Positions 2,465 to 62,676 of a stretch of DNA of 64,000 nt are shown here, piece after piece. Source of the DNA: Minisyncoccota bacterium (GTDB lineage: Bacteria > Patescibacteriota > Minisyncoccia > Phycocordibacterales > UBA2100); NCBI GenBank assembly GCA_035500505.1, contig DATJXE010000004.1, forward strand, positions 50,230-114,229. Reading direction: 5' to 3'. Position 1 is the first letter of the stretch, and each line of letters begins with the position of its first letter. The position numbers and the translations under genes are program-made. Below the pieces are notes generated by a model. It did no database searches and was not told the DNA's origin. It saw only the letters and a program-made list of their open reading frames with translations.

Positions 2465-3247
2465 ATGGATACCTATCACAAGTGGATCGCCTTTTATACG
2501 ATGATGCGCAAGGACGTCGTGCGCATATTCCGCATCTGGGTGCAGACATTCTTGCCGAGCGTCATCACCTCGTGCCTCTACTTCCTCATATTCGGCACCG
2601 TATTGGGAAGCCGCATCGGCACTATGGAAGGCGTGCCATACATGCAATTCGTCATTCCCGGCCTCGTCATGATGGCCATCCTCACCAACGCCTATGCGAA
2701 TTCCTCATTCACCTTCTTCCAATCCAAATTCTTCGCGCGCTCCATCGATGAACTCCTCGTCTCGCCGATGCCGCCGTGGCTCATCATTTCCGGATTCGTT
2801 TCGGGCGGCGTCATTCGCGGTGTCTTGGTGGGTGCCATCGTACTCATCGTCTCGATATTCTTCACCGGGTTGCACCTCACGATCGCCAACCTCGCCATCA
2901 TTCTTTTCTTCGCCGTCCTCACGTCGGTCGTCTTCGCGCTCGCAGGGCTCATCAACGGCGTGTACGCCAAATCGATCGACGCCATCAACATCGTGCCGAC
3001 CTTCGTCCTCACGCCGCTCACCTATCTCGGCGGTATTTTCTACTCGGTACACACGCTCCCGCAGTGGGCGCAATACGTGACCTATGTGAACCCCATCTTC
3101 TACCTCATCAACGGCTTCCGGTACGGATTCCTGGGCTTCGCCGACATTTCCGTTTGGACCTGCGTCGGCGTTCTCTCCGGGCTCATCATCGTCCTCGTCG
3201 GCATCAATTTGTATCTCATCCGCACGGGGTTGGGCTTGAAACAATAG
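2465..3247 (+). CDS. ABC-2 family transporter permease
   Basis: ATG lies 1 nt after the ATPase stop. It has six predicted TM helices with an ABC-2 permease-like profile and is co-oriented with the ATPase. Confidence 0.75.
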   Translation: MDTYHKWIAFYTMMRKDVVRIFRIWVQTFLPSVITSCLYFLIFGTVLGSRIGTMEGVPYMQFVIPGLVMMAILTNAYANSSFTFFQSKFFARSIDELLVSPMPPWLIISGFVSGGVIRGVLVGAIVLIVSIFFTGLHLTIANLAIILFFAVLTSVVFALAGLINGVYAKSIDAINIVPTFVLTPLTYLGGIFYSVHTLPQWAQYVTYVNPIFYLINGFRYGFLGFADISVWTCVGVLSGLIIVLVGINLYLIRTGLGLKQ

Positions 3248-4639
3248 TTAGCCGCGAGCGATTCTTTCCGCAAGGCCGAGGTAGTTTTCTGGTCGGAGCG
3301 CCTTGAGGCGCTTTTTTAGTTTGGCGTCGATATCGAGACCGTCGATGAATTCGGCGAAGTCTTTAAGCGTAACCTGTCGGCCGCGTGATAATTCTTTCAG
3401 CTTCTCATATGGCAAGGCGACGCCTTGACGTCGTAGGACGGTTTGGATGGCTTCGGCCAAGACTTCCGGGTGCGCACGCAGCGCTTGGAGCATTGCGCCT
3501 TTGTTGACGCTTATCTTTCCAAAGCCTTTCACGAGTGAGCGGTAGGCGATAAGCGAGTGCGCGAAAGCGGTGCCAAAGACGCGCTCGACGGTCGAATCGG
3601 AAAGGTCGCGCTGCAGGCGCGAGATGGGCAGCTTGCGCGAGAAATGCTCGAACAAGGCGTTTGCAACGCCCAAGTTCCCCTCCGCGTTCTCGAAATCTAT
3701 CGGATTCACCTTGTGCGGCATCGTCGAAGAGCCGGTCTCGCCTTTTTTTGCCTTTTGCGTGAGCCAGCCGTCGGAGATGTAGCGCCATAAGTCCTGCGAG
3801 AGATCGATGAGGATGGTGTTGATGCGACGCATGTAGTCAAAATATTCTGCATACGTATCGTGCAGCTCTATTTGCGTCGTGAACTCATTGAGCTCGATGC
3901 ACATGTAGTGCTTCTTCCCCTTCCCTTCCAGATTGAAACTCTCGATGAATTTCTTGGAGAACGCGGGCCAATTCACATCGGGCGCTGCAACGACGTGCGC
4001 ATTGTAATTCCCTGTCGCGCCGCCCCACTTCACCAAAACTTTGCCGTGTTTGAAAACATCCACCTGGTTCTGCAATCGTTTCAAAAATACTCGCATTTCC
4101 TTGCCGAAGGTCGTCGGTGAGGCGCTCTGGCCGTGGGTGCGTGCGAGCATCGGCGTTTTGGCGTGCGTTTTCGCGAGACCTTCCAACTCTTTTGCGATAT
4201 CCCACATCGGGCCGCCCAAAAATCCTTTCTCGAAGAAATCCCGGAGCATCAAGCCATATGCGACACTGTTTACGTCTTCGGAGGTAATCGCAAAGTGGAC
4301 CGACTCTGAAACGTCTTCGAGCGACGTCCCCTGCAGTTTTTGTTTTATAAAATATTCGATCGCCTTTACGTCGTGGTTCGTATCCTTTTCGATCTCTTTT
4401 ATCGATCGGGCATCTTCGAGTGAGAGCTTGGAAAGTTTCTTTAACAATTTCTGTTCCTTGTCGGTAAGTCTCCGAACGCCCGTCTTCGGCGTTTTCGAAA
4501 GCGCGAGCAAGTACTCACATTCAACGAGAATGCGGTACTTTATGAAGGCAAACTCGCTGAAATACTCGGCGACCGGACCGGTTATTTCGCGATATCGCCC
4601 GTCTATAGAGCTTACTGCTGTCAGTGGTTCAAGCGGCAT
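3248..4639 (-). CDS. purB: adenylosuccinate lyase
   Basis: 463 aa. Fumarate-lyase superfamily with the ASL-specific N-terminus (SSIDGRYREITGP) and the GSSTMPHKVNPIDFEN signature. Confidence 0.9.
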   Translation of the reverse strand: MPLEPLTAVSSIDGRYREITGPVAEYFSEFAFIKYRILVECEYLLALSKTPKTGVRRLTDKEQKLLKKLSKLSLEDARSIKEIEKDTNHDVKAIEYFIKQKLQGTSLEDVSESVHFAITSEDVNSVAYGLMLRDFFEKGFLGGPMWDIAKELEGLAKTHAKTPMLARTHGQSASPTTFGKEMRVFLKRLQNQVDVFKHGKVLVKWGGATGNYNAHVVAAPDVNWPAFSKKFIESFNLEGKGKKHYMCIELNEFTTQIELHDTYAEYFDYMRRINTILIDLSQDLWRYISDGWLTQKAKKGETGSSTMPHKVNPIDFENAEGNLGVANALFEHFSRKLPISRLQRDLSDSTVERVFGTAFAHSLIAYRSLVKGFGKISVNKGAMLQALRAHPEVLAEAIQTVLRRQGVALPYEKLKELSRGRQVTLKDFAEFIDGLDIDAKLKKRLKALRPENYLGLAERIARG

Positions 4640-8873: not shown

Positions 8874-9035
8874 TTATTTGTCATGCCAGTCCTGGTCATG
8901 ATCGCCGGTACGACCCTGTGGTCGTGCGAGAGACATGAGCGCCAAATGGATCTCGGTTGAGGACAACCCCCGTTCACCTTGACGTTCTTCTCCGTTATCG
9001 TTCGCAGCGACTGTTTTCGTGCGTTCCTTTGTCAT
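8874..9035 (-). CDS. small charged hypothetical protein (53 aa)
   Basis: ATG is preceded by a GGAGGAG Shine-Dalgarno ~9 nt upstream and sits between purQ and the NTPase. No recognizable domain. The longer track ORF 8874..9179 overlaps the purQ 3' end and was trimmed. Confidence 0.2.
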   Translation of the reverse strand: MTKERTKTVAANDNGEERQGERGLSSTEIHLALMSLARPQGRTGDHDQDWHDK

Positions 9036-9076
9036 GGCGTCCCTCTCCTCCGAGAAACGATTCGTTCGGCTGAAAG

Positions 9077-17053: not shown

Positions 17054-17662
17054 ATGCTGCATACCCTCCTGCCGCATCTCGGACTCGTGCATCTCGTGCG
17101 TGCCGTCGGCTATCCCGGTCTCTTCGCGGCTGTCTTTCTTGAATCCGGCGTATTCTTCGGATTTTTCCTGCCTGGCTCTTCGATGCTTTTCACCGCCGGG
17201 CTTCTTGCGACGACCGGCCTTTTCAATCCCTGGGTCTTGATGGGGCTCATGGCGCTCGCCGCCATCCTCGGCGACAACGCCGGTTATTGGTTCGGCTCGT
17301 ACATGGGCGTTTCGCTTTTCTTTTGGAGCGACTCGCGCTTTTTCCGCCACGACTATCTCGAACGCGCGAAAGAGTTCTACGAAAAACACGGCATCCTCTC
17401 TATCGTGCTCGCGCGCTTCATTCCCATCGTGCGGACATTCGCGCCGATATTCGCCGGCGTCGTGAAGGTGCGTTACTCGCTTTTCCTCATGTACAACGTG
17501 CTCGGCGGCATCCTCTGGGCCTCCGGCGTCACGTTCCTCGGCTACTTCCTCGGGCGAAAAGTGCCGTTCATCGCAAGCTACATAACGCCCATCGTCATTT
17601 TGATAATCATTGCGAGCCTCGTCCCACTTTTGTGGGAAACGCGCAAGTCGCGTGATCGTTAG
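17054..17662 (+). CDS. DedA/SNARE-associated family membrane protein
   Basis: 202 aa. The DedA signature GYPGLFAAVFLESGVFFGFFLPGSS and multiple TM helices are present. Confidence 0.8.
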   Translation: MLHTLLPHLGLVHLVRAVGYPGLFAAVFLESGVFFGFFLPGSSMLFTAGLLATTGLFNPWVLMGLMALAAILGDNAGYWFGSYMGVSLFFWSDSRFFRHDYLERAKEFYEKHGILSIVLARFIPIVRTFAPIFAGVVKVRYSLFLMYNVLGGILWASGVTFLGYFLGRKVPFIASYITPIVILIIIASLVPLLWETRKSRDR

Positions 17663-17668
17663 CGACAC

Positions 17669-17778
17669 GTCCCCCCGCAGGCCACACGTTTGCCGTGTTC
17701 TCGGAGCGCTTGGCGCGAGAGGCAGGGAATTTTCAGCAGAAAATTACCCGACGGCAAACGTGTGGCCTGCGGGGGGAC
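17669..17778 (+). repeat. conserved ~110-nt long-hairpin element, copy 1 (28-bp perfect outer stem, conserved 70-nt core with two internal hairpins)
   Basis: GTCCCCCCGCAGGCCACACGTTTGCCGT pairs perfectly with ACGGCAAACGTGTGGCCTGCGGGGGGAC. The core CTCGGAGCGCTTGGCGCGAGAGGCAGGGAATTTTCAGCAGAAAATTACCCG lies between them. The 45-nt stretch CGAGAGGCAGGG...ACGGCAAA is identical to copy 2 at 34166-34279. The element fills the DedA/ROK convergent gap. Confidence 0.7.
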
Positions 17779-17786
17779 CTACCCAG

Positions 17787-18560
17787 TTAGTGCAACTGTT
17801 TCAGGCGGGTCATTCCGCCCCAAAGCCCGCCGAAATCGCCGAGCTGCGAGTGGACTATCTCGGGAACGTTGGGGAATTTTTTCATCACCTCAGCGACGTG
17901 CGCACGCACGCGGTCTACGGAGATGCCTATCTCGTTGAACATCGAGCCGCCAAGCACCACGCGCTCCGGCGACCAATGCAGGATGGAGTTGTGCACGCCG
18001 AAAGCGACCGTGCGCGACAGCTCTTCCCAAACTGCATGGTCTTTGCCCAGGTCCTTTGGCGATTCCACTTTGAAGCGCTCCGAAATCGCTTTGCCAGAAA
18101 CCATCTGCTCAAACGTTGTGGGGGTCTCGCCTATCGAAAGGTATTGGCCGCCGATCTCGAACCCTTGTTTGGAAATATCAATTTTCCCATCAACGATGCG
18201 GGCGCCGTTCACACCGGTCGAGACCGTGACGTACATGCAGATGCGCACGCCCTTCCCTGCGCCGTTGGTCGCTTCGCCCAAACCTACGAGCGCCGTGTCA
18301 TTCTCGATATGCAAAGGTGCATTTATACGCGCCTGCAGGTCCTTTTCGAAAGACGGGCGGGACTTCCAAATGGGTTTCCCGACGATGACGCCGTCTATCC
18401 TTCCTCCGTTCGATATACCTTTTACGGTATTGGCAAGATGTTCTATCAAGTCCTTGAGATCAGGTGGTGTGTGCGTGATGAGCGGTTCGTCAAAACGTTC
18501 CAGGTCATCGGTCTTCGCGATGCGCATCTTCGTTTCGCCTACGTCTACCGTGATGTACAT
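17787..18560 (-). CDS. ROK-family sugar kinase (glucokinase-like)
   Basis: 257 aa. The ROK glycine-rich N-terminus (ITVDVGETKMRIA) and the ENDTALVGLGE motif (like ENDANAAALGE) are present. Confidence 0.7.
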   Translation of the reverse strand: MYITVDVGETKMRIAKTDDLERFDEPLITHTPPDLKDLIEHLANTVKGISNGGRIDGVIVGKPIWKSRPSFEKDLQARINAPLHIENDTALVGLGEATNGAGKGVRICMYVTVSTGVNGARIVDGKIDISKQGFEIGGQYLSIGETPTTFEQMVSGKAISERFKVESPKDLGKDHAVWEELSRTVAFGVHNSILHWSPERVVLGGSMFNEIGISVDRVRAHVAEVMKKFPNVPEIVHSQLGDFGGLWGGMTRLKQLH

Positions 18561-31643: not shown

Positions 31644-34163
31644 ATGCCGATTTTTTTAGACACATCGAAACGGCGCAAGCTGTTCATCCGCGTCTTCGCC
31701 GTCACGTTCGCGTCCATCACTTTCTTGGGTCTTGTGTTCCTCGCAGTCAGCGTCTTTTTCGAAAGCCCGCAGCGCCCCGCGCTCACCTACGCCGAAGCCG
31801 CGGATTCGTATCACTACTACTACAGCTCCGCCAACGATCACAAGATCGCGATCACTTTCAACGACGGCCCGCAGCCGGGTATTTCGCAATCCCTGATGGC
31901 GACGCTTGAGAAAGACAACGCGCCGGCGACCTTCTTCTATATCGGCGAGAATGTTTTCATGCACCCCAACATCGTCCACGAGGCGGCGACGGAAGGATTC
32001 ACTATCGGCAATCAGTCCTTCACCGGCTCCGACAACGTCGAGTCTTCGGCCACACGGCTCTCGCTCGAACTGCACGCGACCGAATTCCTGATATCGCGCA
32101 TCACCGGCGCGTCGTCGTTCTTTTATCGGCCGCCATACCTCCTTGGCGTGGGCACCGACCCGACCATGAATCCCTACCTTCCGCCCTCACAGGACATTTT
32201 GTGGGCCATGGAGAACGGTTACAACCCCGTCGGCGCCGACATCGACCCCAACGATTGGAAGGCCGACACAAAAGAGGACGTTGAGTCGGGCGTCATCGCC
32301 GCACTCAAGAGTTCCCCCAACGGGCACATCCTGCTTCTGCACGAGCGGCCCCAGACCGCGGAAGCGATGGATGCGATAGTCCAGACCATCCGTAAGAGCG
32401 GCTACACCATCGTGCCGCTTTCCGAACTTCTCACGCCGCCCGCGCAGCTCGCGCTCACACAACCGCTCCAGCAGGGCGATACCGACGCGACGACCGAGGG
32501 CCAGGTGTCGCAATTGCAGTGGTTCCTCTACAAAGACGGCGACCTCGACCCGTACCTCATCACCGGCACGTTCGGCTCCCTCACTCGCACGGCGCTCATA
32601 CGCTTCCAATTGAAGAGCAACATCCTCAACGGCGGTTCCGCATCGGCTGGCGCAGGCATCGCCGACGCCGCGACGCGAAAAGCCATCGAGAGCCGCTCGG
32701 TCGCCGTCTTGCAGCACAACGCGCTCTTCAATGCGCCCGTTCTTCATCCCTTCGCGTTCACGTGGATAGGACAACTCTTCGCCTTCGCCTACATCAACCT
32801 CTTCCCCGCCCTGCACGACGGCCTCTCTGCCATCATGTGGCTCGCCCTCTTCATCGTGCTCATACGCTGCGCCGCCCTCTTGGGACTTCTCGCGTGGGCG
32901 AAACGACAGGAGCGGCTGGCCAAGATCGGCGACCCGGAAGACATGGGAGAAGGGATCTCGGTGCTCATTCCCGCGTACAACGAAGAAGAGAACATCCGCG
33001 CGACGATAGAAAGCGTGTTGCACTCCAACTACCAGCCCAAAGAGGTCATCGTCATCGACGACGGCTCGACCGACGGGACCGGCGGCGTCGTGCGCGAAGC
33101 CATGGCGGCGCATCCGGACGAACCCATCAGGCTTCTGCAAGTCGAGAACGGCGGAAAAGCGAGCGCGCTCAACCACGGACTCGAAGCGGCGCAGTTCAAC
33201 ATCTGCGCGGTGCTCGATGCCGACGCGGTCATCGAGGAAGGGACCCTTTCGTATTTCGCGCGACACTTCAAGGACGCCGAGGTGGGCGCTGTCGCGGGCA
33301 AGGTGTGTACGACCGCGAGCGCGCGCGTCCTCGACATGTTGCAGACGCTCGAATATGCGATAGGCCAGAACATCAACAAGCGCGCGCTTTCGACCATTGG
33401 CGCGATAGGCGTCGTGCCGGGACCTTCCGGCGCGTGGAACAAGCGATTCGTGCTCGAAGCCGGCGGTTTCAGCACCGACACCCTGGTCGAGGACCAGGAC
33501 ATGACGCTCACGCTCCTACGCGCCGGCAGGAAGGTCGTCTACGAAGAGAAAGCCGTCGCCTACACGGAAACGCCGCACACCGTGAAGAACTTTCTCAAAC
33601 AGCGATTCCGCTGGGTCTACGGCACGCTGCAATGCTTCTGGAAACACAAGCGCGTCGTCATCGAGCACCCGCTTTCGAGCATGAGCCTCATCGTGCTGCC
33701 CAACATCATCGTGTTCAACACCCTGCTGCCGCTCACCTATCCTTTCTCCGATCTTTCGCTCGTCATCGGCCTCCTCGTGAGCGACTGGCACGGTCTCGTC
33801 CTGCCGTTCCTGCTCTTCACCGCGTTCGACGTTTCGTACGCGGCGGTCGGGGTTTGGCGCGAGAAAGACCGCGTGCGGATGCTCGCCTATGTCCCCTTGC
33901 AGCGTTTCGTGTACCGCCAGCTGCTCTATTACACGGTCATGCGGGGCCTCATCCGCGCGCTCGAAGGCACGGGCTCGGGCTGGAACAAGTTCTCGAAGAT
34001 CGGCGAGACGCAGCGTTTCTACTTCTCCGCCCTCGGCGAGAGCCCCGAGCCCGTGTTGGATTTTCTCCCGTCATTTTCGCCCCTCCCGGACTTGTCGACG
34101 TCGTCGTCTCCGAGCACGTCGGGGATGCTCTCGCTTTCGGAAAGCAGCGACTTACAAACGTAG
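31644..34163 (+). CDS. fusion protein: CE4 (NodB-like) deacetylase, peptidoglycan-binding domain, processive family-2 glycosyltransferase (NodC/PgaC-like)
   Basis: An N-terminal TM helix is followed by ITFNDGP (NodB motif) and a PG_binding_1-like segment (LQWFLYKDGDLDPYLITGTFGSLTRTAL). The GT2 domain has LIPAYNEE, DDGSTDGT, DAD and the QRFRW processive-synthase motif. Multiple C-terminal TM helices follow. Confidence 0.75.
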   Translation: MPIFLDTSKRRKLFIRVFAVTFASITFLGLVFLAVSVFFESPQRPALTYAEAADSYHYYYSSANDHKIAITFNDGPQPGISQSLMATLEKDNAPATFFYIGENVFMHPNIVHEAATEGFTIGNQSFTGSDNVESSATRLSLELHATEFLISRITGASSFFYRPPYLLGVGTDPTMNPYLPPSQDILWAMENGYNPVGADIDPNDWKADTKEDVESGVIAALKSSPNGHILLLHERPQTAEAMDAIVQTIRKSGYTIVPLSELLTPPAQLALTQPLQQGDTDATTEGQVSQLQWFLYKDGDLDPYLITGTFGSLTRTALIRFQLKSNILNGGSASAGAGIADAATRKAIESRSVAVLQHNALFNAPVLHPFAFTWIGQLFAFAYINLFPALHDGLSAIMWLALFIVLIRCAALLGLLAWAKRQERLAKIGDPEDMGEGISVLIPAYNEEENIRATIESVLHSNYQPKEVIVIDDGSTDGTGGVVREAMAAHPDEPIRLLQVENGGKASALNHGLEAAQFNICAVLDADAVIEEGTLSYFARHFKDAEVGAVAGKVCTTASARVLDMLQTLEYAIGQNINKRALSTIGAIGVVPGPSGAWNKRFVLEAGGFSTDTLVEDQDMTLTLLRAGRKVVYEEKAVAYTETPHTVKNFLKQRFRWVYGTLQCFWKHKRVVIEHPLSSMSLIVLPNIIVFNTLLPLTYPFSDLSLVIGLLVSDWHGLVLPFLLFTAFDVSYAAVGVWREKDRVRMLAYVPLQRFVYRQLLYYTVMRGLIRALEGTGSGWNKFSKIGETQRFYFSALGESPEPVLDFLPSFSPLPDLSTSSSPSTSGMLSLSESSDLQT

Positions 34164-34165
34164 CG

Positions 34166-34279
34166 GAAGTCCCCGGGACGGCATGGTTTTGCCGTGTCTC
34201 GGAGTGCGTCGGCACGAGAGGCAGGGAATTTTCAGCAGAAAATTACCCGACGGCAAAACCATGCCGCCCCGGGGACTTC
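34166..34279 (+). repeat. conserved ~110-nt long-hairpin element, copy 2
   Basis: GAAGTCCCCGGGACGGCATGGTTTTGCCGT pairs with ACGGCAAAACCATGCCGCCCCGGGGACTTC (one A/C mismatch). The core is identical to copy 1 from CGAGAGGCAGGG through ACGGCAAA. It fills the gap between the GT2 gene stop and the 3D-domain gene stop. Confidence 0.7.
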
Positions 34280-34299
34280 GCAATAAGGAACGAGAGAGA

Positions 34300-35064
34300 C
34301 TAATGCGTGGGCGTATTGCCGTACTGCGCAGTGCAGCTTGTGCCGTTGAAGAGCGAGCCGGGAACGACCGCGTAGGTCGGACTCGGGTTCTCGATGATGG
34401 TGTAGTTGCCGGTTATGGTGTCCTCGCATGCGAGCACCCCTTTGCCGGAATAGTCGCCCGCGTACATGTCCACCCAGACCTGCACGCCCTTCGGCGTTTG
34501 GTGGCATTCGGCGCAGGTGTCGGCCACGATGAAGTAGCGCCGCACGTTGGGGATGTAGAACTTCGTCCCGGCTGGAATGTCCGGCTTTTCGCCGACGTAG
34601 CCGACGGCGAGCGTGATGGGAGCCTGGTAGGTGCCGGTGCCGCCGGCGCTTCCTTCGATGCCGCTGATGTAAGTGATGATACTTCCCGCAGGATCGTTAT
34701 CGCCCGCAGCGTAGGAGGTCGTGTATGCGGTGAGATAAATTTCGCCCGAAGACGTTGCGGGCGGCGTGCTCGTTGGCGACGTGCTCGGCGGAGGATTTTG
34801 CGGAGGCGGCGGAGGCGGGGGCGTCGGTTTCGTTGTGGTCGCCGTAGACGTGGAGGTCGTCGAACCCGACGTGCCGCCCGACGAATGCTTGGGAGGCTGC
34901 TTCGTATTATTGGAAGTATTCGAACCGGAATGCTGGCTCGAGATGATAACACTCGGCGTCTGTTGTACCGGAGTCGGTGAAGGCTGGGACCAGCCGAAGT
35001 GTCCGCCAAAGAAGAGCGCGCCGACAGAGAGCACTGCGGCCGCCATGAACGACAAGAAATGCAT
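34300..35064 (-). CDS. secreted 3D-domain (MltA/YabE-like) cell-wall protein with Pro/Thr-rich linker
   Basis: A signal/TM segment is followed by a PT-rich linker (TKPTPPPPPPPQNPPPSTSPTSTPP). The C-terminus has GTKFYIPNVRRYFIVADTCAECHQ...VQVWVDMYAGD, which resembles a 3D domain. An alternative start lies at 35130. Confidence 0.5.
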   Translation of the reverse strand: MHFLSFMAAAVLSVGALFFGGHFGWSQPSPTPVQQTPSVIISSQHSGSNTSNNTKQPPKHSSGGTSGSTTSTSTATTTKPTPPPPPPPQNPPPSTSPTSTPPATSSGEIYLTAYTTSYAAGDNDPAGSIITYISGIEGSAGGTGTYQAPITLAVGYVGEKPDIPAGTKFYIPNVRRYFIVADTCAECHQTPKGVQVWVDMYAGDYSGKGVLACEDTITGNYTIIENPSPTYAVVPGSLFNGTSCTAQYGNTPTH

Positions 35065-36490: not shown

Positions 36491-36525
36491 CACAAAACAC
36501 CCCGCCTACGCGGGGTGTTTTGCCA
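36491..36525. terminator. bidirectional intrinsic terminator between convergent genes
   Basis: AAAACACCCCGC-CTAC-GCGGGGTGTTTTG is a GC-rich 9-bp stem with A-run/T-run flanks. It sits between the 36490 and 36537 gene ends. Confidence 0.55.
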
Positions 36526-39881: not shown

Positions 39882-40087
39882 AGATAAATGAAAAAAATTT
39901 ATAAAATTGCTGGATAAAAATTGCCAAGAAATTAAGGCAATCCTCTATTGCGCCTGAGGCTATCATGAAATCGCACGGCAAAAAGATTCGCCACCTACGT
40001 CAATAGGTGGGTAACTCGTCTGAAAAGCCCGTGGATTACCGGTGCGTAACCCTGTGCACAAGTCTTCCCCCAACGTAAGGGTCTTCC

Positions 40088-40116
40088 CCTGCGTCAAGGC
40101 GACGCCTTGACGCAGG
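40088..40116. repeat. REP-like palindrome upstream of the RAYT gene
   Basis: CCTGCGTCAAGGCG-A-CGCCTTGACGCAGG is a perfect 14-nt inverted repeat. Confidence 0.6.
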
Positions 40117-40151
40117 GGGCTTCCAAAAAAGCCTTCGTATAAAATCAATCC

Positions 40152-40823
40152 ATGAATCGGGGTCACTTTGCCGTCGGCGAGTGGTATCACTGCTATTCGC
40201 GCGGGATCGAAAAAAGGAAAACATTCGTAAGCAAACGGGACTACGAACGGTTTATCCAACTATTGTATCTTTGTAACTCCCCTCGACCGATCCATCGAAG
40301 TAACTTGAGAAATCCGTCCTTGGGTGAAGTCTTGAATATTCCACGGCAAGAAACTCTGGTGTCTTTGGGTGCATTTTGCCTAATGCCCAATCACTTTCAT
40401 TTGTTAGTCAAAGAAAAACGGGAACAGGGAATCTCGCGTTTCATGCAAAAACTTGGAACGGCGTACACAATGTACTTTAATATCAAAGAAACGAGGGTCG
40501 GCGGACTTTTCACCAAACCGTTCCGTTCGCGCCTCGTGGGCGACGATAGATATTTTCAGTACGCACTACAATATATCCACTGCAATCCGGCCGAATTGTA
40601 CGAAGCCGGTTGGAAAGAGGGCGTTGTCAAAAATATGAAGGAGTTGGAACAACTGTTGGTGGAATACCCCTACGGGAGTTTCGGCGTTTACCAAAGTGCG
40701 AATCATCGTTTGCGCCCGCTCCTTGCGGACGAGGTTTTCGAGATCCAATCTCAAGCAACTCCTGCTCGAATGTTGAGAGAGGCCCGACTCTATTATGCAG
40801 AACGCGTCAAGGCGTCGCCTTGA
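40152..40823 (+). CDS. REP-associated tyrosine transposase (RAYT; IS200/IS605 TnpA-like HuH enzyme)
   Basis: 223 aa. N-terminus MNRGHFAVGEWYHCYSRG, the HuH motif PNHFHLL and a catalytic Tyr region (RYFQYALQYIHCNP). Domain order and length are as in RAYT/COG1943. Confidence 0.8.
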   Translation: MNRGHFAVGEWYHCYSRGIEKRKTFVSKRDYERFIQLLYLCNSPRPIHRSNLRNPSLGEVLNIPRQETLVSLGAFCLMPNHFHLLVKEKREQGISRFMQKLGTAYTMYFNIKETRVGGLFTKPFRSRLVGDDRYFQYALQYIHCNPAELYEAGWKEGVVKNMKELEQLLVEYPYGSFGVYQSANHRLRPLLADEVFEIQSQATPARMLREARLYYAERVKASP

Positions 40824-40828
40824 CGCGT
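40802..40828. repeat. REP-like palindrome overlapping the RAYT 3' end
   Basis: ACGCGTCAAGGCG-T-CGCCTTGACGCGT has the same GCGTCAAGGCG core as the upstream REP. It encodes the RAYT C-terminus ..RVKASP*. Confidence 0.6.
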
Positions 40829-40829
40829 G

Positions 40830-42620
40830 TCAGCCGAACGTGAACGTGTAGGCTTGAAGCCCCGGTTGCGAGATGACGAACTCGAGGAAGTGTTCGCCGT
40901 AATCCTTGCCGGCGACGATGTCATAAAGACGGTTCTCATTGACGTCTACGTAGCTCATCCCGTCTTTGAAATACACGTCCTTCCCCGCCACCGACGCGTC
41001 GAGCGGCTTGCTGTCGAGCAAGACTTCGACGGGAATGGCTTTGCCTGTCGCAGAACCAGCGACGAAATAAACATTCTTTGAGTCATATTTGTAGTCAACG
41101 CGGTCGGAGCCAACGGAACCGCCGACGTCGCTTCCCGTTTGGGCGTACTGGTCCTCGATATCCCACTGCCCTACCAGATAGAGCGTGTTGAGGTCCACCT
41201 GTTGCGGCTCGTCAAAATTTTGCACGCCGCTTATGCCCGGCTGCCCATTGCCCAGATACTCGTTGCGCTCCGAACCGAAGTAGGTCTCCGGCGATTGCAC
41301 GCCGTTGAAGTTTATCGGGATCATGTTGCTCGGCGTCGTCGAAGTTGCGTTGAAATCCGGCGTTGGAAGGCCGAGACGCGCGGCGCGTTCGATGAGCGCC
41401 TTTTGGATGGCGGCCTCGGCGCCGTCGTAGTCGCCTTCGCCCGCATGGTTGTAGACGATGTAGCCGTCGATATCCACGAGGAAATCGTTGGGCCAGTATT
41501 CGTTGCTGAACGCGTTCCACGTGCCGTACTCATTGTCGAGAACGACCAAGTACGTGATGCCGAATTGTTTCACTGCATTCGCGACATTGTCGTACACATG
41601 TTCGAACGCGAATTCGGGAGTAGAAACACCGATGATGACGAACCCGTACGGCGCGTATTTCTTGTACCACGCCTCGAGGTACGGGATGGTGCGCTGGCAG
41701 TTAATGCAGGAGTACGTCCAGAAATCCACCAGAACGACGTCGTTGCCCTTGTACTGCCCTATCGTTATCGGCTTGCCGTTGGTGTTGATGTAGCCGTCTA
41801 TCGAAGCGAGTTCGGGAGATTTCTTGTACACCATCGCCTTTTCGCTCGGCGAGAGAAGGGCTGTCGAGGTCGACGTGGTCGTGACACTCGATGAGGTGCT
41901 GTTTTGCGCGCCGAGGAGTTGCTCCTCGACGCCGCCAAGGTCGAAACCGTGGTTCAAGAGCCACGCTTCCGCGCTCGCCTCAGCGCCTGTGGCGACCAAA
42001 AGTCCTATGAGGATAAAAAGGATGCCGATGCCGCGGCGGAACCAGCCGGTCGGGTTTATCGTCACACCGAGCCTGTCTACCAATTTCTGTCCCGCGAGCG
42101 CGATGATGAAGAGAAAACCGGAAAGCCCCACCGCGTAGGCGAGGAGGTCGAGGAAGCCGGCAGCGAAGCTCTGAGGCAAGACCGTCGCGAGGATGACGAA
42201 GTACGTTGGCGAGCAGCTCGAGAAGACCGGGCCGAGCGCCGCGCCCATGATCATGTCGCCCACGCGAGAGTTACGCTGGTACCCTTCCGCAAGGAGCTTG
42301 TTGGAGCTGCGGTTCATCAGGTTGACGAAGCCCAGACGGTCCCACAGCGACGGAAAGACCATCACGAGCCCGAAGAGGACGAGGATGATACCCGAGAACC
42401 ATTCCCAAAAGGTCTGCGGGATATTGATGAATATCGTAGAAGCTTTCAGGAGCAACGTGAAGACGATGACCGAAACGCCGAGCGAAAAACATATCGTGTA
42501 AGCGCGCCACCTGCCGCCTTGCGCCAAGGAGCCGCCGACGATGACCGGCAAAAGCGGCAGGACGCACGGCGCTAAGACCGTAAGTACCCCGGCGATGAAT
42601 GAGATGAGAAAGAGGAGCAT
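40830..42620 (-). CDS. DsbD/CcdA-family transmembrane thiol:disulfide transporter fused to thioredoxin-like (TlpA/redoxin) and C-terminal extracytoplasmic domain
   Basis: An N-terminal CcdA-like 6-TM core (LAPCVLPLLP) is followed by a redoxin domain with WTYSCINCQRT (CxxC). A ~200-aa Gly/Asp-rich beta domain follows. Confidence 0.75.
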   Translation of the reverse strand: MLLFLISFIAGVLTVLAPCVLPLLPVIVGGSLAQGGRWRAYTICFSLGVSVIVFTLLLKASTIFINIPQTFWEWFSGIILVLFGLVMVFPSLWDRLGFVNLMNRSSNKLLAEGYQRNSRVGDMIMGAALGPVFSSCSPTYFVILATVLPQSFAAGFLDLLAYAVGLSGFLFIIALAGQKLVDRLGVTINPTGWFRRGIGILFILIGLLVATGAEASAEAWLLNHGFDLGGVEEQLLGAQNSTSSSVTTTSTSTALLSPSEKAMVYKKSPELASIDGYINTNGKPITIGQYKGNDVVLVDFWTYSCINCQRTIPYLEAWYKKYAPYGFVIIGVSTPEFAFEHVYDNVANAVKQFGITYLVVLDNEYGTWNAFSNEYWPNDFLVDIDGYIVYNHAGEGDYDGAEAAIQKALIERAARLGLPTPDFNATSTTPSNMIPINFNGVQSPETYFGSERNEYLGNGQPGISGVQNFDEPQQVDLNTLYLVGQWDIEDQYAQTGSDVGGSVGSDRVDYKYDSKNVYFVAGSATGKAIPVEVLLDSKPLDASVAGKDVYFKDGMSYVDVNENRLYDIVAGKDYGEHFLEFVISQPGLQAYTFTFG

Positions 42621-42890
42621 TTAGTGCATCATGACTCCCTCCGAAGTCGAAGCCGAGACGTCCATCATGTCATGCGACGAAGTTCCCATCATGTCGTGCG
42701 AGGAAGTTCCCATCATTTCGTCGGACGACGTTCCCATCATGTGATCCGACGAGGACGCCATCATGTCGCCGCTTTGCTCGTGCATCATTGCGTCGTTCGA
42801 AGAATAATTCTCATTGTGCTGGATAAGGAGGTACCCGCCGCCGATAACAACTATCGCTGCGACGATCCATCCGATAAGTGTCGTTGTCAT
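42621..42890 (-). CDS. small membrane-anchored Met/His-rich tandem-repeat protein (candidate metal, e.g. Cu, binding)
   Basis: 89 aa. A TM helix is followed by four tandem ~8-aa repeats (S)SDHMMGTS / SHDMMGTS, encoded by ~24-nt DNA repeats. Its stop abuts the DsbD-like gene start. Confidence 0.5.
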   Translation of the reverse strand: MTTTLIGWIVAAIVVIGGGYLLIQHNENYSSNDAMMHEQSGDMMASSSDHMMGTSSDEMMGTSSHDMMGTSSHDMMDVSASTSEGVMMH

Positions 42891-50057: not shown

Positions 50058-50131
50058 TGCCCAGGGCCAGACTCGCACTGGCGACCCTTCGCTCTTCAGG
50101 CGAATGCTCTAACTAACTGAGCTACCTGGGC
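50058..50131 (-). tRNA. tRNA-Phe (anticodon GAA)
   Basis: Cloverleaf GCCCAGG/CCTGGGC acceptor, D-arm GCTC..GAGC and anticodon loop CUGAAGA. The T-loop TGCGAGT is unusual. CCA is not encoded. Confidence 0.8.
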
Positions 50132-50783: not shown

Positions 50784-50855
50784 GCCCTCGTAGCTCAATG
50801 GATAGAGCAATCCCGTCCTAAGGGAGAGATGTGGGTTCGATTCCTGCCGAGGGCA
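50784..50855 (+). tRNA. tRNA-Arg (anticodon CCU)
   Basis: Acceptor GCCCTCG/CGAGGGC, canonical T-loop GGTTCGATTCC and anticodon loop GUCCUAA with G32 and an A27-G43 mismatch. Confidence 0.75.
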
Positions 50856-53203: not shown

Positions 53204-53274
53204 TGCGGGTACGGGGAATCGAACCCCGATCTAATGCTTGGGAAGCATTCGTTCTGCCACTAAACTATACCCGC
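53204..53274 (-). tRNA. tRNA-Gly (anticodon CCC)
   Basis: Acceptor GCGGGTA/TACCCGC, anticodon loop UUCCCAA and T-loop GGTTCGATTCC. Confidence 0.8.
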
Positions 53275-57959: not shown

Positions 57960-57980
57960 GGTGAGCCGAGTATACAGCAA

Positions 57981-58004
57981 AATGGCCCCGAGGGGCCATT
58001 TTGC
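57981..58004. terminator. perfect GC hairpin with A/T flanks 22 nt upstream of murJ start
   Basis: AAAATGGCCCC-GA-GGGGCCATTTT, followed on the minus strand by TATACT and the murJ ATG. Confidence 0.4.
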
Positions 58005-58042
58005 TGCGCCCATACTCGCTACACTCGTTTCGACTTGCTCAT

Positions 58043-58077: not shown

Positions 58078-58424
58078 CATTTCGCTGCGTCGATAAGCCG
58101 GATTCTGTCGAGGGCAGCCATGTATCTGGGATGGTCGTTGCCGACCACCTCAAGCGACACTTTCGTGAGGCCCAATTGGTTCCCCACGAACACGGCCTTG
58201 CACGCGGGTAGGATTTTTGCCGTTGCACCTCCGAGTTACCTTCGGAGCTGTTCTGCGCAAGGTTGAACCTTGCTCAGAACCCCTTACCTCTCGGCTCGGG
58301 CGTCTCTGTTCGCATCCCTATCCTCGCGGACGGCGGGCGTTACCCGCTACCTTCTTAACATCTCGCGATGTGCGTGTCCGGACTTTCCTCCGCGTTTGAC
58401 GCGGCGACTGCCTGGCGCAGACAG
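58078..58424 (-). ncRNA. rnpB: RNase P RNA, bacterial type A
   Basis: Minus strand carries CAGGCAGUCGCCGC (P2/P3), the universally conserved GGAGGAAAGUCCGGAC (P4/CR-I), GGUAACGCC, GCGAACAGAGAC, AGGUAAGGGGU and 3' ACAGAAUCCGGCUUAUCGACGCAG (P4'/P1). Ends are approximate (+/-5 nt). Confidence 0.8.
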
Positions 58425-59598: not shown

Positions 59599-60285
59599 AT
59601 GAATATGCGCGTACTCATCGTCGAAGATGAAAAGAGAATAGCGGACTTTCTCAAAGAATCGCTTGAGGCGGAATATTTCGCCGTGGACGTCGTCGATGAC
59701 GGCGACAAGGGTGCCTATTATGCGCAAATAAACGACTACGATCTCATCATCCTCGACATCATGTTGCCCAAGAAGGACGGATTTGAGGTCCTGCACGAAC
59801 TGCGGAGCGTCGGCATCACGATCCCCATCCTGGTACTCTCGGTCAAGAGCGAAACGGTCAAGAAAGTCGACTTCCTCAACGCGGGGGCCGATGATTACCT
59901 CACCAAGCCGTTCGTGTTGAGCGAACTCCTTGCTCGCATCCGAGCGCTTTTGCGGCGGCCGCAAAAGACCGAGGCTGAAGTATTCGCAGTGGGCGACCTA
60001 ACGCTGAACGTAAAGGCCGGAAAGGTCACGCGCGGCAAAAGGGATATATATCTTACGCGAAAAGAATTCATGCTTCTGCGCTACCTCATGCAGAATGAAG
60101 GCTCCATCATCTCGCGCGGCATGATACTCGAACACGTCTGGGACATGAGTGCCGACATCTTTTCAAACACGATAGAATCGCACATCTTGAGCCTCCGGAA
60201 GAAGCTCGGCGATACCGGCAAAACCCGCCTCATCCAGACTGTTCCTGGGCGAGGCTACAAGATAGAGGCCCCGCTTACTTCTTAG
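59599..60285 (+). CDS. OmpR-family response regulator (REC + winged-helix)
   Basis: Receiver domain with D9/D10, the phospho-acceptor D53 (LIILDIMLP) and K103. The C-terminal trans_reg_C domain is present. No histidine kinase gene is adjacent. Confidence 0.85.
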   Translation: MNMRVLIVEDEKRIADFLKESLEAEYFAVDVVDDGDKGAYYAQINDYDLIILDIMLPKKDGFEVLHELRSVGITIPILVLSVKSETVKKVDFLNAGADDYLTKPFVLSELLARIRALLRRPQKTEAEVFAVGDLTLNVKAGKVTRGKRDIYLTRKEFMLLRYLMQNEGSIISRGMILEHVWDMSADIFSNTIESHILSLRKKLGDTGKTRLIQTVPGRGYKIEAPLTS

Positions 60286-60391
60286 CCTCCTTGTGCACCG
60301 TTTGCTTACGGCACCACTTGCAGTACTTCTTAGTGCTACGTGCAGCAATACAAATGAGAAGACCACCGTACCGAGAGGCGCGATGGCTTCT
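60278..60391 (-). pseudogene. ribosomal protein L33 C-terminal fragment (attR-like remnant of rpmG 3' end)
   Basis: Its last 18 codons (KKYCKWCRKQTVHKEAKK*) are identical in protein to rpmG. There are 7 nucleotide differences, all synonymous. There is no start codon: an in-frame TAG lies 38 codons upstream, and the upstream part is unrelated to L33. Confidence 0.55.
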
Positions 60392-61912: not shown

Positions 61913-62071
61913 TTACTTTTTAGCCTCCTTGTGTACGGTCTGTTTCCTGCACCACTTGCAGTACTTCTTGAGTTCAATTTTGCGCTCGACGAGCTTGCGG
62001 TTCTTGCGCGACCAATAGTTGATGCGGCCGCACTTTGAGCAAGCAAGTTTTATGAGTTGATCTTGTGACAT
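61913..62071 (-). CDS. rpmG: 50S ribosomal protein L33
   Basis: MSQDQLIKLACSKCGRINYWSRKNRK..ELKKYCKWCRKQTVHKE. Zn-ribbon L33 (two CxxC). The track ORF extends upstream to 62137. Confidence 0.85.
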   Translation of the reverse strand: MSQDQLIKLACSKCGRINYWSRKNRKLVERKIELKKYCKWCRKQTVHKEAKK

Positions 62072-62140
62072 AGGAATATATCGCGCCCGCCTCTTCGGCG
62101 GGCAAGGCACTATAACGCACAGGAGCTTGATGGTCAAACC

Positions 62141-62593: not shown

Positions 62594-62676
62594 GCGTCGG
62601 TGGCGGAGTGGTCAAACGCACTTGGCTGTAAACCAAGCGCCTTCGGGCTACGCAGGTTCGAATCCTGCCCGGCGCA
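62594..62676 (+). tRNA. tRNA-Tyr (anticodon GUA), type II with long variable arm
   Basis: Acceptor GCGTCGG/CCGGCGC (one G-U), 3-bp D-stem, anticodon loop CUGUAAA, 14-nt variable arm and T-loop TTCGAAT. Discriminator A. Confidence 0.8.

What the first reader, a model, noticed from the sequence alone, without database searches (positions are those of the whole stretch)
34166..34279. Second copy of the element shows a fully swapped but perfectly compensatory stem segment (covariation)
Copy 2 (GT2 gene / 3D-domain gene convergent gap) shares with copy 1 the stem ends (GTCCCC...GGGGAC), the inner stem (UUUGCCGU/ACGGCAAA) and a 100% identical 45-nt core. The ~13 bp in the middle of the stem are completely different (CCGCAGGCCACACG vs GGGACGGCATGGT), yet each copy remains almost perfectly self-complementary (one mismatch in 30 bp). 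Inside the core, the small hairpin also shows a compensatory C-G to U-A change (CGC-UUG-GCG vs UGC-GUCG-GCA). Both copies are in the same orientation, and both sit 2-20 nt from two converging stop codons. A conserved scaffold with a programmed variable paired segment is not what neutral drift between repeat copies produces. It suggests either a functional RNA/DNA hairpin family or a small non-autonomous element that targets palindromes.
Basis: seen in the sequence. Interest (0 to 1): 0.8.

Follow-up and report, generated by a model that had tools for sequence, protein, structure and literature searches.

The report
Mobile structured hairpin repeat of Patescibacteria
The two look-alike hairpins belong to a widespread, apparently uncatalogued family of about 110-base mobile non-coding elements in ultra-small (Patescibacteria) bacteria, with a conserved three-way core on a long stem that keeps its pairing but not its sequence; the swapped stem is ordinary compensatory evolution, not a programmed guide.

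Summary
Copy 1 (17669-17778) and copy 2 (34166-34279) share a 43-nt identical core, the stem ends and the inner stem. The middle about 14 bp of the stems are unrelated, yet 28/28 and 29/30 positions pair.

Pattern scans and a covariance model recovered about 60 related copies. Almost all come from Paceibacteria/Kaiserbacteria-type genomes, with several per genome. All have a 22-36 bp closing stem plus a three-way junction: P2 with a conserved U.G wobble, and P3, an A/U-rich hairpin with a bulged A and an AGCA loop. Covariation is strong in P1, P2 and P3. There is no Rfam 15 match and I found no paper.

Both window copies are insertions. In the closest relatives the same convergent gene pairs have overlapping or abutting stop codons and no palindrome. 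So the whole hairpin is the inserted unit, and the idea of a core dropped into a terminator is refuted for these sites.

One orthologous pair of copies (L008/L014) diverges at the same rate as its flanks, with compensatory changes. The variable arms match nothing else searched. The nearby RAYT has its own different palindromes.

Verdict: a real, new structured mobile repeat family. Its function and its mobilising enzyme are unknown.

The parts
34166..34195 (+). Copy 2, P1 5' arm (GAAGTCCCCGGGACGGCATGGTTTTGCCGT). Its zones are a weakly conserved outer end, a roughly 14-nt variable zone, a U-tract and a GC clamp.
   Evidence: Inverted repeat I1, 30 nt, 97% complementary; fold; covariance-model hit 34178-34267 at 104.6 bits.
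34196..34222 (+). Copy 2, P2. P2a is GUCUC/GAGGC with a U.G wobble, followed by a 3x2 internal loop (GGA/GA). P2b is GUGC-GUCG-GCAC.
   Evidence: Fold. Family covariation: pair 19-45 is GC in 11 and CG in 9 copies, pair 20-44 is U.G in 15 of 21, and P2b shows several pair types.
34224..34248 (+). Copy 2, P3: GGGAAUUUUC-AGCA-GAAAAUU-A-CCC. A 10-bp A/U-rich hairpin with a bulged A and an AGCA loop.
   Evidence: Identical 25-mer in 51 loci. The stem covaries while the loop and bulge are kept in 15 type B copies.
34250..34279 (+). Copy 2, P1 3' arm (ACGGCAAAACCATGCCGCCCCGGGGACTTC).
17669..17696 (+). Copy 1, P1 5' arm.
   Evidence: Inverted repeat I2, 28 nt, 100% complementary.
17697..17749 (+). 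Copy 1 core: P2 at 17697-17723, P3 at 17725-17749.
   Evidence: covariance-model hit 17679-17768 at 90.7 bits.
17751..17778 (+). Copy 1, P1 3' arm.
17658..17662 (+). GTTAG, left copy of the putative 5-bp target-site duplication of copy 1. It contains the TAG stop of the VTT/DedA gene.
   Evidence: In relative L052 the two stops overlap as TTAG. In the window each gene keeps its ancestral stop position, inside one GTTAG copy.
17786..17790 (+). GTTAG, right copy of the putative duplication. It contains the TTA (TAA on the - strand) stop of the ROK gene.
17663..17785 (+). Whole inserted segment of copy 1 (123 nt): the hairpin plus 6-7 nt unpaired tails.
   Evidence: The gap is 124 nt in the window. 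It is -4 nt in L052 and 44 nt in L053 for the same ROK/VTT gene pair.
34164..34299 (+). Whole intergenic gap holding copy 2 (136 nt). It is absent from the orthologous sites.
   Evidence: The same gene pair overlaps by 4 nt in L056 and is 2 nt apart in L057.

Best explanation
Copies 1 and 2 are members of a Patescibacteria-wide family (mainly Paceibacteria/Kaiserbacteria) of non-coding, multi-copy elements of about 100-125 nt that are inserted as whole units.

**Anatomy.** Each element is a 22-36 bp closing stem (P1) carrying a conserved three-way junction. P1 is constrained only to pair, apart from a U-tract and GC clamp next to the junction and a weak C-rich/G-rich base. P2 is a helix with a conserved U.G wobble and a 3x2 internal loop. 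P3 is an A/U-rich 10-bp hairpin with a bulged A and an AGCA loop.

**The swapped stem.** The different stem in copy 2 comes from long divergence or independent insertion of copies, under selection for pairing but not sequence. It is not a programmed or guide segment.

**Mechanism, shown:**
- The element arrives as one piece at gene ends. In this window both sites are places where convergent stop codons formerly overlapped or abutted.
- It is gained and lost between related genomes.
- Its + strand is the one whose structure is conserved.

**Mechanism, inferred:**
- It is mobilised in trans by an unknown enzyme that recognises the core rather than the ends.
- Insertion tends to occur next to DnaA-box-like sites.
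- Resident copies are read through by neighbouring genes. The perfect duplex of at least 22 bp would then act as a transcript-end or RNase III-type processing stalk, leaving the core as a protein-binding module.
For: **Family and structure**
- 51 loci carry the exact P3 25-mer, and 44 of them are canonical (type A) or rearranged (L020/L024) copies. The other seven are four type C loci (L004, L038, L012) and unrelated hits (L009, L023, L013, L021).
- A strict P3 scan found 15 further type B copies, and the covariance model gave 71 hits in total, some on both strands.
- Covariation on 21 copies: 91.6% of cells paired against 74.7% shuffled (0/500), against 37-54% for slid controls. 19 of 37 pairs show double changes, and the outer nine P1 pairs each show all four Watson-Crick types.
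- P3 stems covary across nine variants while the AGCA loop and bulged A stay.

**Strand**
- The U.G wobble at pair 20-44 is present in 15 of 21 copies.
- In a strand-symmetric census of stem mismatches, G.U on the + strand occurs 31 times against A.C 12 times, p=0.005.

**Insertion as a unit**
- ROK/VTT stops overlap in L052 and are 44 nt apart in L053, against 124 nt in the window.
- GT2 and its convergent neighbour overlap in L056 and are 2 nt apart in L057, against 136 nt in the window.
- The model finds no copy in L052, L053 or L055-L057; L054, which duplicates L053, was not scanned.
- GTTAG is duplicated around copy 1, and each copy carries one gene's ancestral stop.
- Presence or absence also varies at the rpmH-dnaA spacer: present in L008, L014 and L059, absent in L058 and L060.

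**Ordinary evolutionary rate**
- L008 and L014 are orthologous copies. The element shows 12/97 differences against 21% in the flanks. The arms include one full compensatory change, one change to U.G and one mismatch.

**Location**
- Orientation relative to neighbouring genes: (+,+) 11, convergent 11, (-,-) 9, divergent 4.
- All stems are at least 22 bp, median 27.
- DnaA-box-like 9-mers within 30 nt of the hairpin base: 12 observed against 0.69 expected.
Against: - No transcript data are available, so RNA-level function, read-through and RNase III processing are all inference.
- Copies lie sense and antisense to co-directional neighbours about equally (11 vs 9). That does not fit a purely mRNA-embedded RNA role.
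- Flanking direct repeats are not significant family-wide against a within-locus null (Fisher p=0.31). The transposition chemistry is therefore unknown.
- No mobilising protein was found near any copy.
- The stems are almost purely Watson-Crick (about 93-94% in the high-GC copies). That could equally reflect DNA-level maintenance of a palindrome.
- Most copies were collected with an exact P3 pattern, so the apparent invariance of P3 in type A is partly ascertainment.
Confidence: 0.6

Rival explanations
1. Host-beneficial small RNA gene family. The core plus part of the stem is a trans-acting RNA or ribonucleoprotein component, released from any transcript by cleavage of the long stem. Copies spread by duplication, and mobility is incidental.
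For: - Structure is conserved with covariation and a conserved wobble on one strand.
- A copy is retained at the rpmH-dnaA spacer between genomes that are 79% identical in nucleotide sequence.
- Every stem is at least 22 bp.
- The core also turns up in other settings, the type C copies.
Against: - Copy number and positions differ between close relatives.
- Copies are absent from 21 kb around dnaA in two Kaiserbacteria.
- No promoter or terminator signature was seen. This rests only on reading the flanks; no promoter or terminator scan was run.
- Orientation relative to neighbouring genes is random.
Confidence: 0.22
2. DNA-level element. The + strand folds as single-stranded DNA, or as a cruciform, and serves replication or recombination. 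Examples would be a DnaA-box-associated hairpin or a recognition site for a structure-specific nuclease or HUH enzyme. Stem perfection is kept by template-switch correction of quasi-palindromes.
For: - The stems are nearly pure Watson-Crick, with as many transversion-type mismatches as wobbles.
- Orientation is independent of transcription.
- The base of the hairpin is strongly associated with DnaA-box-like sites (P about 1e-11), and copies sit in the oriC-type rpmH-dnaA spacer.
- From my own memory, untested: P3, with its bulged base, resembles the hairpins bound by Y1 transposases.
Against: - The excess of G.U over A.C on one strand, and the conserved U.G in P2a, are more typical of RNA.
- The only Y1 gene nearby has different cognate palindromes.
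- The rpmH-dnaA copy is dispensable.
Confidence: 0.13
3. Programmable, guide-like variable segment: the roughly 13-bp variable duplex specifies a target.
For: Only the pattern itself, a conserved scaffold with unrelated paired inserts even between copies of one genome.
Against: - The arms have no match with up to 4 mismatches in 20 nt elsewhere in the window.
- There is no exact 20-mer in IMG/VR.
- Both strands of the 'guide' are sequestered in a perfect duplex.
- The one orthologous pair of copies examined drifts at the flank rate.
- No effector protein is linked to the copies.
Confidence: 0.03
4. A small core MITE inserted into pre-existing terminator palindromes.
For: The core plus inner stem is conserved while the outer arms differ. 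The window does contain plain 13-16 bp terminator-like hairpins.
Against: - The empty sites for both window copies have overlapping or abutting stops and no palindrome.
- The arms are 22-36 bp with the U-tract on the inner 5' side, unlike the window's terminators, which run A-tract, stem, T-tract.
Confidence: 0.02

Closest known systems
REPINs / REP elements mobilised by RAYT (Y1 HUH transposases)
   Same: Multi-copy, extragenic hairpin-forming repeats of about 100 nt, enriched between convergent genes. A RAYT-like gene (PF01797) lies in the window.
   Different: In REPINs the arms are the conserved REP sequence and the loop varies. Here the apical core is conserved and the arms are free in sequence. 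The RAYT at 40152 is bracketed by a different palindrome, GCGTCAAGGCG-A-CGCCTTGACGC. No RAYT lies in the first 23 fetched loci, L001-L023.
Correia/NEMIS elements of Neisseria and other MITE-like structured repeats (ERIC, BOX, RUP, RPE)
   Same: Small non-coding inserted units whose presence varies between strains, and which fold into long hairpins. From my own knowledge, Correia transcripts are cut by RNase III and alter the fate of neighbouring mRNAs, which is the role inferred here.
   Different: Those families have conserved terminal inverted repeats and a fixed target duplication (TA for Correia). Here the ends are not conserved, direct repeats are not general, and the conserved part is an internal three-way junction with RNA-type covariation.
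rRNA-operon processing stalks and other RNase III excision stems
   Same: A long, near-perfect duplex (at least 22 bp) formed by the sequences flanking a structured RNA.
   Different: This is an analogy only. No processing data exist, and the element is dispersed and mobile.
phi29-type packaging RNA (pRNA), shape only
   Same: A three-way junction with two hairpins on a long 5'/3' helix.
   Different: There is no Rfam match, no phage context, and the element is multi-copy in chromosomes.

Membership tests
Any Rfam 15 family | Covariance-model score at or above the family's gathering threshold. | tested here: not met
   The window at gathering threshold gives only RNase P and tRNAs. In E-value mode on 34100-34350 the only hit is a spurious miRNA-hairpin match, 35 bits against a gathering score of 94. 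Ten related loci give tRNAs only.
REPIN/REP-RAYT | Arms are copies of one conserved REP sequence in inverted orientation. | tested here: not met
   Arms of copies from one genome are unrelated, 4/14 identity between the window copies.
REPIN/REP-RAYT | The cognate RAYT gene is flanked by the same repeat. | tested here: not met
   The RAYT at 40152-40823 is flanked by other palindromes at 40086-40118 and 40802-40828. tblastn finds no RAYT in L001-L023.
MITE (DDE-transposon derived) | Terminal inverted repeats conserved among copies and shared with an autonomous insertion sequence. | tested here: not met
   The outer stem ends differ between copies of one genome. No partner insertion sequence was seen, and no neighbouring gene recurs.
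MITE (DDE-transposon derived) | Target-site duplication of fixed length. | tested here: inconclusive
   There is a 5-bp GTTAG around copy 1, supported by the empty site, an 8-mer in L033 and an 11-mer in L041. Family-wide the signal is not significant.
MITE (generic) | Small, non-coding, multi-copy, with presence/absence polymorphism at orthologous sites. | tested here: met
Integron attC site | R''/R' boxes (RYYYAAC ... GTTRRRY) at the ends, and arrays of cassettes in one orientation next to intI. | tested here: not met
   The ends are GTCCCC/GGGGAC or unrelated. The copies are single, 16.5 kb apart, and sit between convergent housekeeping genes.
Intrinsic (bidirectional) terminator | GC-rich stem directly followed by a U-tract (and preceded by an A-tract if bidirectional). 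| tested here: not met
   No U-tract follows either window copy. The U-tract lies inside the 5' arm. Contrast the true terminator-like hairpins at 36493-36522 and 57975-58006.
Conserved structured RNA (generic) | Base pairs kept through compensatory double substitutions beyond the controls. | tested here: met
   (0/500 shuffles reach the observed values; slid controls 37-54% paired), plus for P3.
RNase III substrate | Cleavage of the duplex in vivo or in vitro. | not testable with these tools
   Only the length criterion (at least 22 bp in all 28 high-GC copies) is met.

The most novel reading that the evidence does not exclude
The family is a new type of bacterial mobile RNA/DNA element recognised through its internal three-way junction rather than its ends. 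It would home to DnaA-box-proximal sites, including the oriC-type rpmH-dnaA spacer. Its transcript would be excised by its own long stem, as a self-contained, promoter-less small-RNA cassette or a SINE-like retro-mobile unit. This would link replication-origin sequence motifs, mobility and RNA processing in genome-reduced Patescibacteria.
Probability: 0.15. Interest if true: 0.85.

Novelty: new variant of a known kind. Interest (0 to 1): 0.55.

Why it matters
Patescibacteria have very small, tightly packed genomes, and their non-coding content is almost unstudied. This element is among the few recurrent structured non-coding features seen there.

It shows textbook covariation, and it pushes apart genes whose stop codons used to overlap. 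It also inverts the usual repeat-element logic, with a conserved centre and free arms.

The family gives a ready covariance model for annotating these genomes. It offers a natural marker of insertion dynamics, and a concrete candidate for a new RNA-protein or DNA-protein partnership. The unexplained association with DnaA-box-like sites is directly testable.

Tried and rejected
- **Rfam**, at gathering and E-value thresholds: nothing.
- **RAYT as partner**: rejected. It has different flanking palindromes and there is no RAYT in L001-L023.
- **Recurrent neighbouring gene or cis-regulatory role**: none found. Clusters were only duplicate or orthologous loci. The PilC, DprA, ComEC and DnaA neighbours were not pursued as a regulon.
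- **Guide hypothesis**: no arm matches in the window or in IMG/VR.
- **Phage or plasmid origin**: no hits.
- **Family-wide target-site duplications**: a first cross-locus null suggested enrichment. A within-locus null removed it.
- **Strand test by isolated mismatches only**: underpowered, 6 against 5. It was replaced by a local-alignment census.
- **Ungapped stem-extension script**: failed on the low-GC copies and was replaced by fold-based boundaries.
- **MAFFT alignment of mixed subtypes**: it mis-registered P1, so covariation was counted on an ungapped high-GC set.
- **Exact-protein look-up of the VTT ORF**: not on record.
- **Hammerhead, twister, K-turn, attC and retron**: compared by eye with features recalled from memory. 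None fits, and these are not formal tests.
- **Literature**: three full-text searches found no description of such a repeat in Patescibacteria.

Full report
**1. The observation**

- Copy 2 has arms 34166-34195 / 34250-34279, 30 nt, with one A.C mismatch at 34178/34267.
- Copy 1 has arms 17669-17696 / 17751-17778, 28 nt, perfect.
- The shared core is 47 nt at 98%, of which 43 nt are strictly identical.
- The outer GTCCCC/GGGGAC and the inner TTTGCCGT/ACGGCAAA are shared. The 14 nt between them match at 4/14.

Both strands fold into a long stem closed by a three-way junction, with z-scores of -9.5 to -12.4. A covariance model built later finds only these two copies when run without filters on the whole window, at 104.6 and 90.7 bits. 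Both copies lie on the + strand in convergent gaps. Copy 1 sits between a VTT/DedA gene and a ROK gene. Copy 2 sits between a GT2/deacetylase gene and an unannotated ORF.

**2. It is a family**

Rfam 15 has nothing for it. I scanned for the P3 hairpin with the pattern GGGAATTTTCNNNNGAAAATTACCC. That gave 23 loci in GTDB species genomes and 28 in JGI metagenomes. Nearly all are from Paceibacteria-type Patescibacteria, with up to five per MAG. There were none in IMG/VR, GenBank phages or PLSDB plasmids. The window itself is from a Paceibacterota MAG, on a contig of 196 kb.

Forty-four of the 51 loci are canonical (type A) or rearranged (L020/L024) copies with the same architecture:
- a closing stem P1 of 22-36 bp (median 27; whole element 97-125 nt);
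- P2, made of P2a, a 3x2 internal loop G(G/C)A / GA, and a 4-bp P2b capped by GNCG or a triloop;
- a 4-6 nt joining strand;
- P3, a 10-bp A/U-rich hairpin with a bulged A in the 3' arm and an AGCA loop;
- one G, then the 3' arm.

Within P1 the nine pairs next to the junction are semi-conserved, a U-tract/A-tract plus a GC clamp that switches between GGGGU/ACCCC, GCCGU/ACGGC and CGGC/GCCG. The next 10-12 pairs have no consensus. The base is weakly C-rich on the 5' side and G-rich on the 3' side.

A structure-only scan for P3-like hairpins found 15 more copies of a second subtype, type B, in low-GC Paceibacteria. These carry nine different P3 stems but keep the AGCA loop and the bulged A. The model recovered 71 hits in the loci held, including both strands of some.

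**3. Covariation**

I used an ungapped alignment of 21 high-GC copies.
- 91.6% of cells form standard pairs, against 74.7% in column shuffles (0/500 reach it) and 37-54% when the partners are slid.
- 19 of 37 pairs show double substitutions.
- The nine outer P1 pairs each show all four Watson-Crick types.
- P2a pair 19-45 is G-C in 11 copies and C-G in 9.
- Pair 20-44 is a U.G wobble in 15 of 21 copies. It would be a C.A mismatch on the other strand.

A strand-symmetric census of stem mismatches gives G.U on the + strand 31 times against A.C 12 times (p=0.005, copies not independent), with 58 transversion-type mismatches. So the conserved fold belongs to the + strand. The stem is otherwise almost purely Watson-Crick.

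**4. Both window copies are insertions of the whole hairpin**

For copy 1, the closest ROK homologues (65% and 64% identity) sit in the same ROK-to-VTT convergent pair. In L052 the stops overlap by 4 nt (TTAG), and in L053 they are 44 nt apart. The window gap is 124 nt. Both genes in the window end at the ancestral residue. Each stop lies in one of two GTTAG copies (17658-62 and 17786-90) that bracket a 123-nt insert. That is what a 4-5 bp target duplication at overlapping stops would give.

For copy 2, the orthologous pair overlaps by 4 nt (CTAG) in L056 and is 2 nt apart in L057. The GT2 proteins are 73-77% identical and the neighbouring protein 69-86%. The window gap is 136 nt, and no clean duplication is visible there.

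None of the empty sites contains a palindrome. The model finds no copy in L052, L053 or L055-L057; L054, which duplicates L053, was not scanned.

Other loci also show presence/absence differences. The SodA/ComEC gap of L006, L017 and L024 is one. The rpmH-dnaA spacer is another: present in L008, L014 and L059, absent in L058 and L060.

**5. The variable stem is not programmed**

L008 and L014 carry orthologous copies in the rpmH-dnaA spacer, and their flanks are 79% identical. The element differs at 12 of 97 positions and each arm at 4 of 23. These include one full compensatory change, one change to a U.G wobble and one uncompensated mismatch. The arms therefore evolve at about the flank rate, by the usual path. 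This rests on one orthologous pair, and both members were collected through the exact P3 pattern.

The two window copies also differ in P2: an indel, a compensatory pair and a different loop. They are old or independently acquired relatives, so unrelated arms are expected. The arms match nothing else in the window with up to 4 mismatches in 20 nt. Their 20-mers are absent from IMG/VR.

**6. Context**

No neighbouring gene recurs. Using heuristic ORF calls, orientation relative to neighbours is (+,+) 11, convergent 11, (-,-) 9 and divergent 4. Gene 3' ends are favoured, but sense and antisense are about equal.

Family-wide, flanking direct repeats are not significant against a within-locus null. 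The exceptions are an 11-mer in L041 and an 8-mer in L033, two copies of one subfamily at different loci.

The RAYT-like gene at 40152-40823 (PF01797) has its own perfect palindromes at 40086-40118 and 40802-40828. It has no homologue in L001-L023, so I see no link to this element.

**7. An unexpected association**

DnaA-box-like 9-mers (TTATCCACA with at most 1 mismatch) occur within 30 nt of the hairpin base 12 times, against 0.69 expected (Poisson P about 1e-11). They always read away from the hairpin, on either side, whatever the orientation of the core.

In the rpmH-dnaA spacer the box and the CGTATAATG element are conserved whether or not the element is present. The L059 copy has an unrelated stem and different spacing, which suggests repeated insertion at one hot spot. 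This points to a target-side preference, or to a DNA-level role. The two window copies have no such box.

**8. What it most likely is and does**

Shown:
- It is a conserved single-strand fold on the + strand.
- It is multi-copy.
- It is inserted as a unit at gene ends.
- It is gained and lost between relatives.
- Stem sequence turns over at an ordinary rate with pairing kept.

Inferred:
- It is mobilised in trans by an unknown enzyme that reads the core, because the ends are not conserved.
- Copies are read through by neighbouring genes.
- The duplex of at least 22 bp acts as a transcript-end or RNase III-type stalk, as is known for Correia elements (from my own knowledge).
- The core acts as a protein-binding module.

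The main rivals are a host small-RNA gene family and a DNA-level hairpin linked to DnaA or replication. Neither can be excluded without transcript data. The guide, terminator-insertion and RAYT/REPIN readings are disfavoured by direct tests.

**9. Known families**

It fails the defining features tested for REPIN (conserved arms, cognate RAYT). It also fails those for classical MITEs (conserved terminal repeats), attC sites and intrinsic terminators, and it matches no Rfam family. It does meet the generic MITE traits and the covariation criterion for structured RNA. Three literature searches found no description. I class it as a new variant of the known kind 'structured intergenic repeat element'. 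It is unusual in having a conserved internal three-way junction and sequence-free arms.

**Caveats**
- The collection was seeded with an exact P3 pattern.
- MAG taxonomy labels are approximate. The 'Saccharibacteria'-labelled L008 is 79% identical to the Paceibacteria-labelled L014.
- ORF calls are heuristic.
- E-values from the model are rough.

Noticed in passing
window 40086-40118, 40802-40828, 3401-3430 (around the ORF at 40152-40823): The RAYT-like Y1 transposase (PF01797) is bracketed by perfect palindromes built on GCGTCAAGGCG-A-CGCCTTGACGC, and a related copy lies near 3401-3430. This looks like a separate REP/RAYT pair, unrelated to the three-way-junction element.
   Followed up: partly
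Flanks of family copies, e.g. L051 about 1976-1999, L027 about 340-355, L041, L033, L044 and L007; also L008, L014 and L059 upstream of dnaA: DnaA-box-like 9-mers abut the hairpin base in about 30% of copies (12 observed against 0.69 expected) and always read away from the hairpin. In the rpmH-dnaA spacer the element is present in three genomes and absent in two, while the box is conserved in all five.
   Followed up: partly
L001, L002, L003, L006, L017, L019, L020, L028, L036, L037, L045, L049: A second subtype, type B (...GCGTGCGCAAGCCTGTCGAGGCGAGCAATGA GGAAATTTCT AGCA AGAAATTATCC...), has strongly covarying P3 stems. It often lies 125-150 nt from a type A copy in inverted orientation. L037 holds four copies in 8.5 kb.
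   Followed up: partly
L004 6668-6710 and 6866-6908; L012 7300-7960 (- strand): A third setting, type C. The P2b and P3 core lies in a segment bounded by long direct repeats, 43 nt in L004. In L012 the 17-nt 3' end of tRNA-Ser occurs three times. Both are about 270 nt downstream of a tRNA gene, which resembles att-site duplications of tiny integrated elements.
   Followed up: partly
L043 about 9030-9070; L020 about 3080-3150; L024 about 2600-2670: Rearranged copies. L043 has an extra 35-nt hairpin inserted between P1 and P2. L020 and L024 keep P3 and the 3' arm, but the 5' half is replaced by other hairpins.
   Followed up: no
window 42638-42781: Five copies of a 24-nt tandem repeat encode His/Met-rich MMGTSS(H/D)(D/E) repeats in a small membrane-anchored ORF on the - strand. 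It lies next to a 596-aa ORF (40830-42620) that I took from its sequence alone to be a thiol-disulfide/CcdA-like membrane protein, so the repeat protein may be a metal-binding partner.
   Followed up: no
window 61913-62080 (-) and 60275-60331: An intact ribosomal protein L33 gene, and 1.6 kb away a second copy (88% identical) of only its last 57 nt, without an intact reading frame.
   Followed up: no
L024, about rel. 1340-1540 from its element (the gap between the ComEC and SodA homologues): Where L006 and L017 carry family copies, L024 has plain short palindromes sharing AGGTGTCC(A/G)ACA(C/T)CT. This may be another small repeat family.
   Followed up: no
window 58079-58423 (-), 50058-50131, 50784-50855, 53204-53274, 62594-62676: RNase P RNA class A (122.8 bits) and four tRNA genes. 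In L033 a family copy sits directly after the homologue of the gene that precedes RNase P RNA in the window.
   Followed up: no
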